From assembly GCA_946186735.1 (NCBI GenBank), contig CAMHOK010000001.1, positions 446 through 64,445 of the forward strand: a DNA stretch of 64,000 nt. The letters run 5' to 3'. A program made the translations under genes and the position numbers. The notes below the pieces were generated by a model. It was not told the DNA's origin, did no database searches, and was given only the letters and a program-made list of their open reading frames with translations. Shown one piece after another: positions 9,303 through 11,404 of this stretch (within the stretch, counting starts at the first letter, position 1; every line of letters begins with the position of its first letter). Origin of the DNA: an uncultured Bacteroidales bacterium (lineage in GTDB: Bacteria; Bacteroidota; Bacteroidia; Bacteroidales; Paludibacteraceae).

Positions 9303-9310
9303 CAAAGATA
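9303..9310 (-). promoter_or_regulatory. -7 box TATCTTTG for rnr
   Basis: Minus-strand TAnnTTTG match 37 nt upstream of the rnr start. Confidence 0.5.
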
Positions 9311-9329
9311 CGAGAATTCTTCTGAATGT

Positions 9330-9393
9330 GCAAACAAAAAAGTGAAACAGAAGCGCTGCACTGTCAGACTAAAGTGTCTGATGGTGCAGCGCT
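9330..9393 (-). terminator. Rho-independent terminator of the riboswitch-controlled lipoprotein operon
   Basis: Outer 10-bp arms AGCGCTGCAC/GTGCAGCGCT flank an inner stem. On the minus strand this is followed by a T-rich tract (CACTTTTTTGTTTG). Confidence 0.7.
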
Positions 9394-9443
9394 TTGTTGG
9401 TTAAGTGTTCTACTATCCGTTGATAGACGGAAGGGCTACTCTT

Positions 9444-10235
9444 TTATTTGGCAACGTTCTTGGTAACGGTCAGACCGTCGAGAGCGAAGTAGGTAGGAGT
9501 GTTGAAGTAGGTCTCGGTGCCGTAGGTTACTACATCGGTAGTCTCCATGTCGAAGGTGATACCGTAGCACTCTCCCAGAGCCGACAGGTCAACTTTCTCC
9601 CATGCTTCGTTGATGAACGACTTGCCATCGCGGAAGTCAGCGAGGTAGTACTTAACCTCTTGACCTGCTATCACTTCGTACTTCTCGTTAAGAGCTTGGA
9701 AGGTGAGGGTGAAGTAGTCGCCGGCAGCAAAAGCACGGGCATAGTCATCGCCTTCTTTGATAGCGGCAACAGCCGATGCTACATTGTTTACATACACTTG
9801 TTTGGGAGTGTATGCGCCGTCGAAGCGGATGTCAGCGGTGCGATAGCGAACGCCGTTATAGTAGTAGTCGCCCCAGTAGCAAACCATGTAAGGCTTGCCT
9901 GCACCTGCTACAGCACCCTTGGCAGCAGCCGACTCAGCAGGATAAGTAGTAGCTTGGTCGTTCTTGCTGATGGTGAAGCCCATGTAGTAAGGATACATAT
10001 TACCTGCATACTCGCTCTCGTCAGCGAAGTGCTGGAAAGAATAGACTTGCGATACGATGTAAGGCACGGTCTTGTCGTAAGTGCCGTTCCAGATACCGTC
10101 TGCATCATATTCAACGGTTGCAGGAGTGGTTGATTGACTAAGGTCAAGAGTGATGGTTTGTTTCTTTTCTTGACCGCAACTTGCGAATAGAAGCGCAACG
10201 GCTACTATTGCAACAGAAAAAAGACTTTTTTTCAT
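9444..10235 (-). CDS. Lipoprotein resembling the DUF4465 family
   Basis: Lipoprotein signal MKKSLFSVAIVAVALLFASCG. The central YMGFTISKNDQ...AKGAVAGAGKPYMVCYW pattern recalls DUF4465. It is the second gene downstream of a cobalamin riboswitch. Confidence 0.6.
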   Translation of the reverse strand: MKKSLFSVAIVAVALLFASCGQEKKQTITLDLSQSTTPATVEYDADGIWNGTYDKTVPYIVSQVYSFQHFADESEYAGNMYPYYMGFTISKNDQATTYPAESAAAKGAVAGAGKPYMVCYWGDYYYNGVRYRTADIRFDGAYTPKQVYVNNVASAVAAIKEGDDYARAFAAGDYFTLTFQALNEKYEVIAGQEVKYYLADFRDGKSFINEAWEKVDLSALGECYGITFDMETTDVVTYGTETYFNTPTYFALDGLTVTKNVAK

Positions 10236-10274
10236 GATTGTTGTTAGTTGTTTTGATTATTGGTTATATGTAAG

Positions 10275-11150
10275 TTATTTGTTTGTTGTCAGTATTTTTA
10301 CGCCTGCCACTTCGGTGCTCAGCTCGCCTATGTTATCATACACTTCATCCACAGCGGTCATTATTCTTATGAAGTCGCAGTAGTCTAATCTCACGCTGTT
10401 GCCGTGGTCGTCAACAGCCCAGTCGAGGTCGAAACTGATGCCGTCGGCATCGCTGTTAGGTTTGTTGTCGGCATATCCGTAGTCGAGCACTTTCTGTGCG
10501 ATAGTGCCGTTGAACACCTGGTGGTGTGAGGCGAGACAGGTGCCGGAGACGGTGATGACGGTATCTTCTATCCACTCAGGGAAATAGGGTTGTGTATGGA
10601 AGCGGTTGCGCAGGGTGGTGTCGCTCTTGTGCCATGTCTTGGTGTAGTGGTGGCGGGTGAGCGGGTTGTTGTATTCAGAGCCTGCCAACTCATACCACTC
10701 GTCGTCGGGTAAGGCGTTGTTGTTGAGGTCTTGACTGACATACACTATGCCCGGTTCGCTCGACCCGTATTCTGCGTTCGATTGCATCAAGAAAGCGTTG
10801 CCTAAGACTTGGAAGTCGTAGGCTGAGGGGCGGTTGTTCACTTTCTGCCTGAAGCAGACGGTTACATACCCACCGAAGCCTCCTAAGGAGATGAGTGAGT
10901 TGGTGTTGAGAGCTTCTTGTGCTTTGCGGCACATGTCAGCGTGTGTGTCGCCCTGTTCGTAGGTAGGCATAATATTGACGAACTGCCCCATAGCCGGACA
11001 ATACTCTATGACCATGAGCGGTTGTTCGTCGGCGGGCTCTTCTCCGTGATGTGGCTTAGAGCAACCCACACACAAAAGGACAAGCGCTAACGCACTCGCC
11101 ATAAGACACCTAAAGAGCTTTCGTTGTGTAATAGTCAGTTGTTCTCTCAT
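10275..11150 (-). CDS. Putative cell-surface lipoprotein, first gene of the B12-riboswitch operon
   Basis: Signal/lipobox-like ALALVLLCVGCSK. Lies directly downstream of the riboswitch. No specific family recognised with certainty. Confidence 0.55.
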   Translation of the reverse strand: MREQLTITQRKLFRCLMASALALVLLCVGCSKPHHGEEPADEQPLMVIEYCPAMGQFVNIMPTYEQGDTHADMCRKAQEALNTNSLISLGGFGGYVTVCFRQKVNNRPSAYDFQVLGNAFLMQSNAEYGSSEPGIVYVSQDLNNNALPDDEWYELAGSEYNNPLTRHHYTKTWHKSDTTLRNRFHTQPYFPEWIEDTVITVSGTCLASHHQVFNGTIAQKVLDYGYADNKPNSDADGISFDLDWAVDDHGNSVRLDYCDFIRIMTAVDEVYDNIGELSTEVAGVKILTTNK

Positions 11151-11184
11151 GCTTTATGTCTCCTATCCTCGGGAGCCAATAAAA

Positions 11185-11372
11185 CTCAATGATGGCAGGT
11201 CTTCCGGCTTGTGATGCTTGCTCTTGCCTTCCCATCCGCTGTTTGGCGGACAGTGGCTTGAGACTTAGAGCAAACGTTCAATCACTTACGGCTGCGGGAC
11301 AGCGCAGGAGTCGCACCTGCTTCCCATCTTAGTCAGTCGTGCTCGATGAGACGACTGAAACCACCATATCTT
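11185..11372 (-). promoter_or_regulatory. Cobalamin (B12) riboswitch
   Basis: The minus strand reads ATGGTGG...GGGAAGCAGGTGCGACTCCTGCGCTGTCCCGCAGCCGTAAG...GCCACTGTCCGCC...AAGCCGGAAGACCTGCCATCAT. The last element is a full B12 box (plus-strand 11195-11211). P1 pairing ATGGTGG/CTGCCAT is possible. Confidence 0.85.
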
Positions 11373-11396
11373 ATCGTTAATCTTAAACGACGCGGC

Positions 11397-11404
11397 AAAG
11401 ATAC
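11397..11404 (-). promoter_or_regulatory. -7 box TATCTTTG driving the riboswitch leader
   Basis: Minus-strand TAnnTTTG match about 25 nt upstream of the aptamer. Confidence 0.5.

What the first reader, a model, noticed from the sequence alone, without database searches (positions are those of the whole stretch)
9444..11404. Cobalamin riboswitch controlling a two-lipoprotein operon with no transporter or B12-dependent enzyme
On the minus strand a TATCTTTG promoter box is followed by a well-formed cobalamin riboswitch. It has the core GGGAAGCAGGTGCGACTCCTGCGCTGTCCCGCAGCCGTAAG, a GCCACTG element and the B12 box AAGCCGGAAGACCTGCC.

The only genes before a strong terminator (9330-9393) are two predicted lipoproteins: a 291-aa protein and a 263-aa DUF4465-like protein. 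No btuB, btuFCD, cobalamin-independent isozyme or cobalamin biosynthesis gene lies in the transcription unit or nearby. In gut Bacteroides, riboswitch-linked surface lipoproteins (BtuG, BtuH) were shown to be high-affinity corrinoid-capture proteins. These two proteins could be a further, uncharacterised class of B12-responsive surface proteins that act with a receptor encoded elsewhere.
Basis: partly seen in the sequence, partly recalled or inferred. Interest (0 to 1): 0.6.

Follow-up and report, generated by a model that had tools for sequence, protein, structure and literature searches.

The report
B12-switched satellite BtuH–BtuJ capture operon
A genuine vitamin-B12 riboswitch controls two lipoproteins that both belong to already characterised Bacteroidetes B12-capture families (BtuH and BtuJ/DUF4465), and the matching outer-membrane importer lies on another contig, so this is an ordinary B12-scavenging add-on rather than a new protein class.

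Summary
Rfam's cobalamin model scores the leader at 100.9 bits against a 31.5-bit cut-off. Two co-directional lipoprotein genes follow, then a strong terminator. No btuB or btuG lies anywhere in the 64-kb window.

The reading "a further, uncharacterised class" does not hold.
- **ORF1 (291 aa)** is a stand-alone BtuH-type B12-binding domain with the architecture of B. thetaiotaomicron BtuH1. It matches PDB 8BLW_B at E 2.9e-54 and 7BIZ at E 2.5e-34, with a modelled fold TM of 0.75-0.77. Nine of 12 named BtuH2 contact residues are identical, including the whole metal site.
- **ORF2 (263 aa)** is a BtuJ/DUF4465 protein: Pfam 97.6 bits, the top nine fold hits are all BtuJ-type structures, and the NTPxY loop is kept.

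The same MAG, probably a rumen Paludibacteraceae and apparently a corrin auxotroph, carries btuB-btuG-btuH-btuJ on another contig.

The riboswitch→H→J module recurs in a few related rumen MAGs in different neighbourhoods. Its H proteins form one clade next to the H domains of BtuG-H fusions.

Published surveys already report btuH and DUF4465 genes outside btuB operons. This scan has also met riboswitch-controlled stand-alone BtuJ genes in other genomes.

Verdict: a new member of a known kind, of low-to-moderate interest.

The parts
11396..11403 (-). Bacteroidetes-type -7 promoter box TATCTTTG (TAnnTTTG)
   Evidence: Read directly. It lies 16 nt upstream of the aptamer. The same box aligns in the orthologous leaders L014 and L016. 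Promoter function is inferred.
11177..11380 (-). Cobalamin riboswitch aptamer (RF00174). It has the P6 extension with GCCACUG, and the B12 box lies at 11210-11194.
   Evidence: 100.9 bits against a gathering score of 31.5, E 4.5e-24, full-length match to the model.
11160..11175 (-). Expression-platform hairpin CUCC[CGAGGAUA]GGAG, ending 9 nt before the AUG. It is a candidate P13/L13 kissing-loop partner of aptamer loop L5 (UCCCG).
   Evidence: The loop is conserved and the stem covaries in 6 orthologous leaders; 96.6% of cells paired against 70% in shuffles, and 5 of 5 pairs change on both sides. One search shows the alignment. No terminator lies between the aptamer and the start codon. The kissing-loop role is inferred.
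10275..11150 (-). ORF1, 291 aa: a lipoprotein made only of a BtuH-type B12-binding domain (BtuH1-like). The lipobox Cys is C30.
   Evidence: PDB sequence matches: 8blw_B E 2.9e-54 and 7biz_A E 2.5e-34. The AF2 model has pLDDT 83. Foldseek gives TMq 0.77 to 8blw_B and 0.75 to 7biz, with no other significant hit. The contact residues are invariant among the orthologues.
9444..10235 (-). ORF2, 263 aa: a BtuJ/DUF4465 lipoprotein. The lipobox is LFAS|C20.
   Evidence: PF14717 at 97.6 bits. PDB sequence matches to 9fct, 9qpm, 4jqr, 4e9k and 9hmu. The AF2 model has pLDDT 86. The top 9 Foldseek hits are all DUF4465 structures. The HI-loop motif N245-T-P-T-Y249-F250 is invariant in the orthologue alignment.
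9331..9398 (-). Intrinsic terminator that closes the two-gene operon
   Evidence: dG -32.1 kcal/mol, z -6.26, and 0 of 200 shuffles fold as well. A U-rich tail follows. A second TATCTTTG box at 9311-9304 then precedes rnr.

Best explanation
This is a satellite, B12-repressed accessory operon of the Bacteroidetes Btu uptake system.

Proposed mechanism, step by step:
1. When intracellular cobamide is scarce, the leader stays open and the bicistronic mRNA is translated.
2. The mRNA yields two lipoproteins. One is a stand-alone BtuH-type B12-binding domain. The other is a BtuJ (DUF4465) jellyroll B12 binder.
3. By analogy with B. thetaiotaomicron, both sit on the outer membrane or cell surface, capture corrinoids at nanomolar or tighter affinity, and pass them to the BtuG-BtuB complex. 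In this genome that complex is encoded on another contig.
4. A FecCD-type ABC transporter then takes the corrinoid across the inner membrane.
5. When cobamide is replete, ligand binding to the aptamer probably docks aptamer loop L5 onto the conserved CGAGGAU loop of the hairpin that ends 9 nt before the AUG. This would block translation initiation.

What is shown here:
- the riboswitch;
- the family membership and fold of both proteins;
- the conserved binding residues;
- the operon boundaries;
- the presence of btuBG elsewhere in the genome;
- the recurrence of the module in relatives.

What is inferred:
- actual B12 binding;
- surface exposure;
- hand-off to BtuG-BtuB;
- the translational kissing-loop mechanism.
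For: **Riboswitch.**
- It scores 100.9 bits.
- A riboswitch sits directly upstream of the same gene pair in L014 (103.4 bits), L016 (74.5), L018 (84.4) and L020 (74.1).
- My regex also finds one upstream of the pair in L022, L023, L024 and at the second site of L025.

**ORF1 is a BtuH domain.**
- Sequence matches are and the fold match.
- Mapping the alignment (7BIZ chain index = residue number minus 100) gives identical residues at Q333/F334, N399, F401, E406, H476, D522, S582 and E584. These correspond to Q56/F57, N118, F120, E132, H185, D228, S278 and E280.
- All of these positions are invariant in 15 orthologues. Y475 is replaced conservatively by F184.
- The two changed positions (Y510 to T216, W577 to I274) are also changed in the BT1490 H domain. 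The review reports that this domain binds CNCbl (PMC13616437).

**ORF2 is a BtuJ.** The evidence is. The NTPxY HI-loop tyrosine, retained in 97% of the family (PMC13398666), is present as Y249.

**The rest of the genome fits a scavenger.**
- Contig C9 carries a TonB-dependent receptor with a Plug domain, BtuG (DUF5074), BtuH and BtuJ.
- There is one FecCD permease and one B12-binding-domain enzyme.
- No CbiC or CbiB was found in a 94.7%-complete MAG.

**Expression platform.** The hairpin covaries, and no leader terminator was found.

**Precedent.** In B. theta operon 1, one riboswitch controls only the accessory genes btuK1-btuK2-btuH1, and these riboswitches repress translation (PMC13616437).
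Against: - No binding, localisation or expression data exist for these proteins.
- The lipoprotein export signal is weak. ORF1 has 0 acidic and 1 basic residue at positions +2 to +7 after the lipidated Cys (CSKPHHGEEP). ORF2 has 1 acidic and 2 basic residues (CGQEKK). BtuJ1 has CSDDDE.
- The DE-loop tyrosine that the DUF4465 paper highlights (BtuJ1 Y146) is S154 in ORF2, and S or Q in the satellite clade.
- The canonical cluster already has its own BtuH and BtuJ, so the need for a second pair is unexplained.
- One orthologous locus (L012/L021) shows no riboswitch in front of the pair.
- The L014 orthologue uses a terminator-type platform, so the mechanism is not uniform across the lineage.
- No riboswitch was detected in the 279 nt available upstream of the C9 btuB.
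Confidence: 0.8

Rival explanations
1. The two lipoproteins stay on the periplasmic face of the outer membrane. There they would act as a periplasmic corrinoid buffer or hand-off step between BtuB and BtuF, not as surface capture proteins.
For: - The export signals are weak or atypical: 0-1 acidic residues at positions +2 to +7, with Lys residues present.
- In this genome the cluster-encoded BtuH and BtuJ have ordinary signal peptides and T9SS-like C-terminal tails. Surface display of these two domains may therefore already be covered by another route.
Against: - LES rules were derived in Bacteroides and Capnocytophaga and may differ in Paludibacteraceae.
- BtuG and the GH fusions of related genomes, which must be surface-exposed to cap BtuB, carry only 2 acidic residues in the same stretch.
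- Orthologues of ORF1 share an acidic (D/E)EP(E) patch a few residues after the Cys.
- All characterised BtuH and BtuJ proteins are surface-exposed or proposed to be so (PMC13616437).
Confidence: 0.1
2. The pair sequesters corrinoids as a store or as a competitive weapon, possibly on outer-membrane vesicles, and does not feed BtuB directly. Under this reading its separation from btuBG reflects a separate function.
For: - BtuJ1 has been proposed as an extracellular reservoir and is enriched on vesicles in B. theta (10.1101/2025.07.01.662609; PMC13616437).
- The module moves independently of btuBG and sits in at least four different neighbourhoods.
Against: - In B. theta, BtuJ1 transfers B12 to other Btu lipoproteins and is required for growth at limiting B12, so reservoir and import are linked there.
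- Repression by intracellular B12 fits an uptake function.
Confidence: 0.07
3. One reading: the two proteins form a new, uncharacterised class of B12-responsive surface proteins, distinct from BtuG and BtuH.
For: - ORF1 has no Pfam or NCBIfam hit, which is why it looked unassigned.
- ORF2's family still carries a DUF name.
Against: - ORF1 matches BtuH-domain structures at E 2.9e-54 and E 2.5e-34, with TM 0.75-0.77.
- ORF2 is a DUF4465/BtuJ protein with solved B12 complexes in the family (PMC13398666).
Confidence: 0.02

Closest known systems
BtuH1 (BT1488) and the H domain of BtuG1/BtuGH (BT1490, PDB 8BLW chain B) of Bacteroides thetaiotaomicron; BtuH2 (BT1956, PDB 7BIZ)
   Same: - It has the same ~250-residue B12-binding domain. 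Foldseek reports 43% identity to the 8BLW H domain and 33% to 7BIZ.
- The fold matches.
- The full Na/Ca-phosphate site and most corrin contacts are conserved.
- Like BtuH1, it is a lipoprotein with no extra N-terminal domain.
- It is riboswitch-controlled.
   Different: - It is not in an operon or locus with btuB. BtuH1 sits in locus 1, next to btuB1.
- It is paired directly with a btuJ gene.
- Its export signal is weak.
- Y510 and W577 of BtuH2 are replaced, as they also are in BT1490.
- Phylogenetically it groups with GH-fusion H domains, not with the PKD-type BtuH or with this genome's own cluster BtuH.
BtuJ1 (BT1491, PDB 9FCT/9QPM), BtuJ2 (BT1957, PDB 9I2L) and the DUF4465/PF14717 family
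   Same: - The Pfam domain matches.
- It is predicted to have the augmented jellyroll fold.
- The HI-loop NTPxY motif is present.
- It is a lipoprotein of similar size (263 aa against 256 aa).
- It sits as the last gene of a B12-riboswitch transcription unit.
   Different: - Identity to BtuJ1 is only about 23%.
- The DE-loop tyrosine (Y146) is replaced by Ser.
- It lacks the acidic CSDDDE export signal.
- It is encoded away from btuB and btuG.
First riboswitch unit of B. thetaiotaomicron operon 1 (riboswitch to btuK1-btuK2-btuH1)
   Same: A cobalamin riboswitch is dedicated to accessory capture lipoproteins only, with no transporter in the unit.
   Different: - In B. theta this unit lies immediately next to a second riboswitch and btuB1-btuGH-btuJ1. 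Here the unit is on a different contig from btuB and is flanked by housekeeping genes.
- The gene content differs: H plus J here, against K, K and H there.
Riboswitch-controlled stand-alone BtuJ genes noted earlier in this scan (e1-2295095)
   Same: Both are detached, riboswitch-controlled accessory B12 binders whose receptor is encoded elsewhere.
   Different: This locus has two genes, with a BtuH-domain gene in front of btuJ.

Membership tests
Cobalamin riboswitch (Rfam RF00174) | The covariance-model score reaches the curated gathering score over the full model | tested here: met
   100.9 bits against 31.5, model positions 1-189 of 189, not truncated.
Cobalamin riboswitch (Rfam RF00174) | It lies in the 5' leader, on the same strand as and directly upstream of the regulated gene, and contains a B12 box | tested here: met
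   The aptamer ends 27 nt before the ORF1 AUG. The B12 box lies at 11210-11194.
Cobalamin riboswitch (Rfam RF00174) | Ligand-dependent change of expression | not testable with these tools
Only the conserved, covarying platform hairpin supports this.
BtuH family (B12-binding globular domain of BT1488, BT1490 and BT1956) | Homology to the ~270-residue BtuH domain | tested here: met
   E 2.9e-54 to 8blw_B residues 398-657, and E 2.5e-34 to 7biz_A residues 223-492.
BtuH family (B12-binding globular domain of BT1488, BT1490 and BT1956) | The same fold, which has no other structural homologues | tested here: met
   TMq 0.77 to 8blw_B (rmsd 2.4 A) and 0.75 to 7biz. The next hit has E about 1e-2 and TM 0.26.
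BtuH family (B12-binding globular domain of BT1488, BT1490 and BT1956) | Conserved metal-site residues (N399, E406, D522, S582, E584) and corrin contacts (Q333, H476, Y510) | tested here: met
   All five metal-site residues plus Q333, F334, F401 and H476 are identical and invariant in the orthologues. Y475 becomes F. Y510 becomes T and W577 becomes I, as also seen in the B12-binding BT1490 domain.
BtuH family (B12-binding globular domain of BT1488, BT1490 and BT1956) | Surface-exposed lipoprotein | tested here: inconclusive
   A signal peptide with Cys30 is present and a lipobox is conserved in the orthologues. Position -3 is Cys, and the acidic export signal is weak.
BtuH family (B12-binding globular domain of BT1488, BT1490 and BT1956) | Binds vitamin B12 | not testable with these tools
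   This needs purified protein. No ligand co-folding tool is available here.
BtuJ / DUF4465 (PF14717) | Pfam model score above the gathering score | tested here: met
   97.6 bits against 25, profile positions 3-176 of 176.
BtuJ / DUF4465 (PF14717) | Augmented beta-jellyroll fold | tested here: met
   the top 9 Foldseek hits are all DUF4465 structures, with probability 1.0 and TMq 0.56-0.62.
BtuJ / DUF4465 (PF14717) | HI-loop NTPxY motif with the B12-binding tyrosine (BtuJ1 Y245) | tested here: met
   N245-T246-P247-T248-Y249-F250. T246, P247, Y249 and F250 are invariant in 20 homologues.
BtuJ / DUF4465 (PF14717) | DE-loop helix tyrosine (BtuJ1 Y146) | tested here: not met
   It aligns to S154. 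The position is S or Q in the satellite clade and F, W or Y elsewhere. This is one contact of many and is not used to define the family in Pfam.
BtuJ / DUF4465 (PF14717) | Binds B12 or cobinamide | not testable with these tools
   This needs purified protein.
Canonical Bacteroidetes btu locus (riboswitch - btuB - btuG core with accessory genes) | btuB and btuG lie in the same operon or locus | tested here: not met
   There is no BtuB or BtuG HMM hit in the 64-kb window. Both lie on contig C9. The locus is therefore an accessory satellite, not a btu locus in the strict sense.

The most novel reading that the evidence does not exclude
The riboswitch-BtuH-BtuJ bicistron could be a self-contained, mobile "capture cassette". 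It would be a distinct lineage that split from, or gave rise to, the BtuG-H fusion loci. It would display the two B12-binding domains as lipoproteins, in parallel with T9SS-anchored copies encoded in the core cluster. On this reading the cell has two physically different capture layers, or a periplasm-facing layer given the weak export signals, under separate B12 control.
Probability: 0.2. Interest if true: 0.45.

Novelty: new member of a known kind. Interest (0 to 1): 0.25.

Why it matters
The result assigns a function to two genes that standard annotation leaves as "hypothetical" and "DUF4465". It also shows that the BtuH domain still lacks a Pfam or NCBIfam model, so stand-alone BtuH proteins keep looking novel.

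It documents that rumen Paludibacteraceae carry the B. theta-type multiprotein B12 relay, but split across loci. One satellite pair has its own riboswitch, and the core-cluster copies appear to use T9SS tails instead of lipid anchors.

That is useful for annotating B12 economy in rumen MAGs. It also helps in choosing BtuH and BtuJ variants for binding studies. It does not change the current picture of corrinoid uptake.

Tried and rejected
- Pfam and NCBIfam on ORF1 returned nothing. The identification came from the PDB sequence search.
- My first B12-box regex was mis-specified and matched none of the 8 Rfam-confirmed riboswitches. I rebuilt it from the sequences and it then recovered all 8.
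- The simple terminator scan missed the operon terminator because of its internal bulges. Folding confirmed it.
- That scan's only minus-strand hit lies inside the ORF1 signal-peptide codons (11100-11079). It is no more than the shuffles produce, so I dismissed it.
- I looked for a truncated riboswitch upstream of the C9 btuB and found none in the 279 nt before the contig end.
- I looked for a riboswitch in front of the L012 pair and found none at E <= 0.01.
- I considered that ORF1 is a recent duplicate of this genome's cluster btuH. The tree rejects this, since the two lie in different clades.
- I considered a transcription-termination platform for the window's leader. No terminator lies between the aptamer and the AUG, although the L014 orthologue has one.
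Full report
**1. Observation**

- Rfam's cobalamin model matches 11177-11380 at 100.9 bits (gathering score 31.5), E 4.5e-24, over the full model.
- The quoted core, the GCCACTG element and the B12 box (11210-11194) can be read.
- A TATCTTTG box, the Bacteroidetes TAnnTTTG type, lies at 11403-11396. It aligns with the same box in two orthologous leaders.
- Two ORFs follow: 291 aa (10275-11150) and 263 aa (9444-10235), separated by 39 A-rich bases.
- A hairpin of -32.1 kcal/mol follows, with z -6.3 and 0 of 200 shuffles folding as well. A U-rich tail comes after it.
- A second TATCTTTG box at 9311-9304 then precedes rnr, so the unit is bicistronic.
- The neighbours are rnr, lpxD/C/A, gldH, a RicT/PSP1 protein and holB.
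- HMMs for BtuB and BtuG built here hit nothing in the 64 kb.

**2. What the proteins are**

ORF1 has no Pfam or NCBIfam hit, but it is clearly a BtuH-type domain.
- It matches PDB 8BLW chain B, residues 398-657, at E 2.9e-54. Foldseek's entry title identifies that chain as BtuG1 of B. thetaiotaomicron, which is the BtuG-H fusion BT1490.
- It matches 7BIZ (BtuH2, BT1956) at E 2.5e-34.
- An AlphaFold2 model built on 15 orthologues has pLDDT 83 and pTM 0.79.
- That model superposes on 8blw_B at TMq 0.77 and 2.4 A, and on 7BIZ at TMq 0.75. Nothing else is significant.

I mapped the BtuH2 residues named in the review PMC13616437 onto the alignment. All 12 named residues fall on the expected letters when the 7BIZ chain index is taken as residue number minus 100.
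- Identical in ORF1: Q333, F334, N399, F401, E406, H476, D522, S582 and E584. This set includes the whole two-metal site that holds the nucleotide-loop phosphate.
- All of these positions are invariant in 15 orthologues.
- Y475 becomes F.
- Y510 becomes T and W577 becomes I. These two positions are also changed in the BT1490 H domain, which the review reports to bind CNCbl.

ORF1 has only a signal peptide and a short linker before the domain. [quoted passage not shown]

ORF2 is a BtuJ/DUF4465 protein.
- It matches PF14717 at 97.6 bits against a 25-bit cut-off.
- It matches five solved DUF4465 sequences.
- Its model has pLDDT 86 and finds nine DUF4465/BtuJ chains as its top hits: 9HMU, 4E9K, 9FCT, 4JQR, 9QPM and 9I2L.
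- The HI-loop NTPxY motif, with the B12-binding tyrosine kept in 97% of the family (PMC13398666), is present as N245-T-P-T-Y249-F250. T246, P247, Y249 and F250 are invariant in 20 homologues.
- The other highlighted tyrosine (BtuJ1 Y146, in the DE-loop helix) aligns to S154.

B12 binding has been shown for BtuJ1, BtuJ2 and eight divergent DUF4465 proteins (PMC13398666; 10.1101/2025.07.01.662609).

**3. The rest of the genome**

The window belongs to a 2.13-Mb, 204-contig MAG that is 94.7% complete. The nearest named relatives of ORF1 are rumen Paludibacteraceae MAGs.
- The MAG has three cobalamin riboswitches.
- Contig C9 carries a TonB-dependent receptor with a Plug domain (737 aa), BtuG (DUF5074, 381 aa), a BtuH (413 aa) and a BtuJ-fn3 protein (535 aa) in one minus-strand cluster. 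The receptor "encoded elsewhere" therefore exists.
- Only 279 nt are available upstream of that btuB before the contig ends, and they hold no riboswitch fragment.
- There is one FecCD permease and one B12-binding-domain enzyme. CbiC and CbiB were not found. This fits a corrinoid auxotroph that scavenges.
- The cluster-encoded BtuH and BtuJ have ordinary signal peptides and T9SS-like C-termini, while the satellite pair have lipoboxes.

**4. Recurrence and origin**

The same module recurs in relatives, in unrelated neighbourhoods.
- The riboswitch → H (~290 aa) → J (~266 aa) module occurs in L014, L016, L018, L020, L022, L023 and L024.
- It also occurs at a second site in L025, directly after a canonical cluster.
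- Rfam confirmed the riboswitch in L014, L016, L018 and L020.
- L012/L021 has the gene pair but no detectable riboswitch.

The next-closest homologues of ORF1, at 50-58% identity, are the H domains of ~630-aa BtuG-H fusions in (riboswitch)-btuB-btuGH-btuJ clusters. More distant ones are ~400-aa BtuH proteins in riboswitch-btuB-btuG-btuH clusters.

A maximum-likelihood tree of 98 H domains gives the following.
- ORF1 lies in an all-satellite clade of 9 rows (SH-aLRT 99).
- That clade joins 26 GH-fusion domains and L018 (SH-aLRT 98).
- This genome's own cluster BtuH lies elsewhere on the tree.

The gene order riboswitch-(B-G)-H-J is compatible with the satellite arising by loss of btuB and the propeller part of a GH-fusion locus. 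It is equally compatible with the reverse, fusion of a satellite-type H to BtuG. The tree is unrooted, so the direction is open.

In a sample of 150 species of the family, 72 have an H domain. Four of the six other genomes of the same genus carry GH fusions. No other satellite-type copy was found in that sample. The lineage is therefore real but uncommon.

**5. How the switch probably works**

- No terminator lies between the aptamer and the AUG.
- A hairpin CUCC[CGAGGAUA]GGAG (11175-11160) ends 9 nt before the AUG.
- Its loop is conserved and its stem covaries in six orthologous leaders. In one search, 96.6% of cells are paired against 70% in shuffles. All 5 pairs change on both sides, and slid registers reach at most 59%.
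- The loop is complementary to aptamer loop L5 (UCCCG) if one base is bulged. That base is A in five of the six leaders and C in L025b.
- This is the layout of the regulatory L5-L13 kissing loop known from structurally studied cobalamin riboswitches (my own knowledge). It also fits the statement that Bacteroides cobamide riboswitches repress translation (PMC13616437).
- The L014 orthologue instead has a hairpin plus U-run after the aptamer, so the expression platform differs within the lineage.
- This whole step is inference.

**6. Comparison with what is known, and novelty**

Both families are published: BtuH in 2022, and BtuJ/DUF4465 in 2025-2026.
- More than 80% of btuH homologues share an operon with btuB, which means a minority do not (PMC8941943).
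- Only 40-55% of the main DUF4465 cluster is located next to TonB-dependent receptors (PMC13398666).
- B. theta operon 1 already has a riboswitch that controls accessory genes only (PMC13616437).
- Earlier notes of this scan describe riboswitch-controlled stand-alone BtuJ genes and T9SS-tailed BtuH and BtuJ proteins in other genomes.

The locus is therefore a new member of a known kind, in a detached two-gene arrangement that has not, to my knowledge, been singled out before.

The open points are:
- surface versus periplasmic orientation, given the weak export signals;
- the effect of the missing DE-loop tyrosine;
- why a second H/J pair is kept alongside the core cluster.

**7. Verdict**

Interest is 0.25.

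Noticed in passing
L010:3606-8318 (own genome, contig C9:20605-25317): A second cobalamin riboswitch (84 bits) precedes a 1432-aa ORF. Its only family hits are Listeria-Bacteroides/Flg_new_2 repeats and a near-threshold T9SS Por_Secre_tail (21.6 bits against 23). It has no PDB sequence match and no hit to my BtuH, BtuJ, BtuG or BtuB HMMs. A riboswitch-controlled giant surface protein with no known B12 domain is more novel than the assigned finding.
   Followed up: partly
L011:3730-10611 (own genome, contig C4:12729-19611): The third cobalamin riboswitch (86 bits) precedes four genes. They are a 404-aa ORF with no Pfam, NCBIfam or PDB match, a 551-aa DUF748-like protein, a 238-aa CobW-type GTPase and a 941-aa Fer4/Pyr_redox protein. 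None is a known B12 transporter or a known B12-dependent enzyme.
   Followed up: partly
L010:8465-11310 (own genome, contig C9): The cluster-encoded BtuH (413 aa) and BtuJ-fn3 (535 aa) have signal-peptidase-I type signals and T9SS-like C-terminal tails instead of lipoboxes. The satellite pair are lipoproteins. The same genome may therefore display the same two domains by two different anchoring routes.
   Followed up: partly
L012:63-7765, L016:2-7576, L021:103-6702: In several relatives the H-J pair is preceded by another stand-alone H protein (~368 aa). A protein of about 2200 aa follows it, carrying a DUF4465 domain and a T9SS tail. In L016 the riboswitch lies between this giant gene and the pair. 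In L012 and L021 no riboswitch was found there.
   Followed up: partly
L014:8045-8090: The orthologous leader in L014 ends in a classic hairpin plus U-run (CTTACTTCGGAAGAAGTGAG TTGTTTTTCG) instead of the CGAGGAU-loop hairpin. The same riboswitch-gene pair therefore appears to use transcriptional control in one lineage and probably translational control in another.
   Followed up: partly
L025:3831-11432: One Bacteroidales MAG (RUG225) has a canonical btuB-btuGH-btuJ cluster. It is followed immediately by a second riboswitch and a satellite-type H (302 aa) and J (496 aa). This may be an intermediate layout between linked and detached forms.
   Followed up: no
window 9304-9311 (-): A second TATCTTTG promoter box lies directly after the operon terminator and about 38 nt before the RNase R start. 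It supports independent transcription of rnr.
   Followed up: no
L052 and L066: Two contigs with typical Bacteroidales btuB-btuG-btuH-btuJ loci are labelled "Azospirillum sp. CAG:239" and "uncultured Clostridium sp." in their records. These are probably binning or labelling errors rather than cross-phylum transfer.
   Followed up: no
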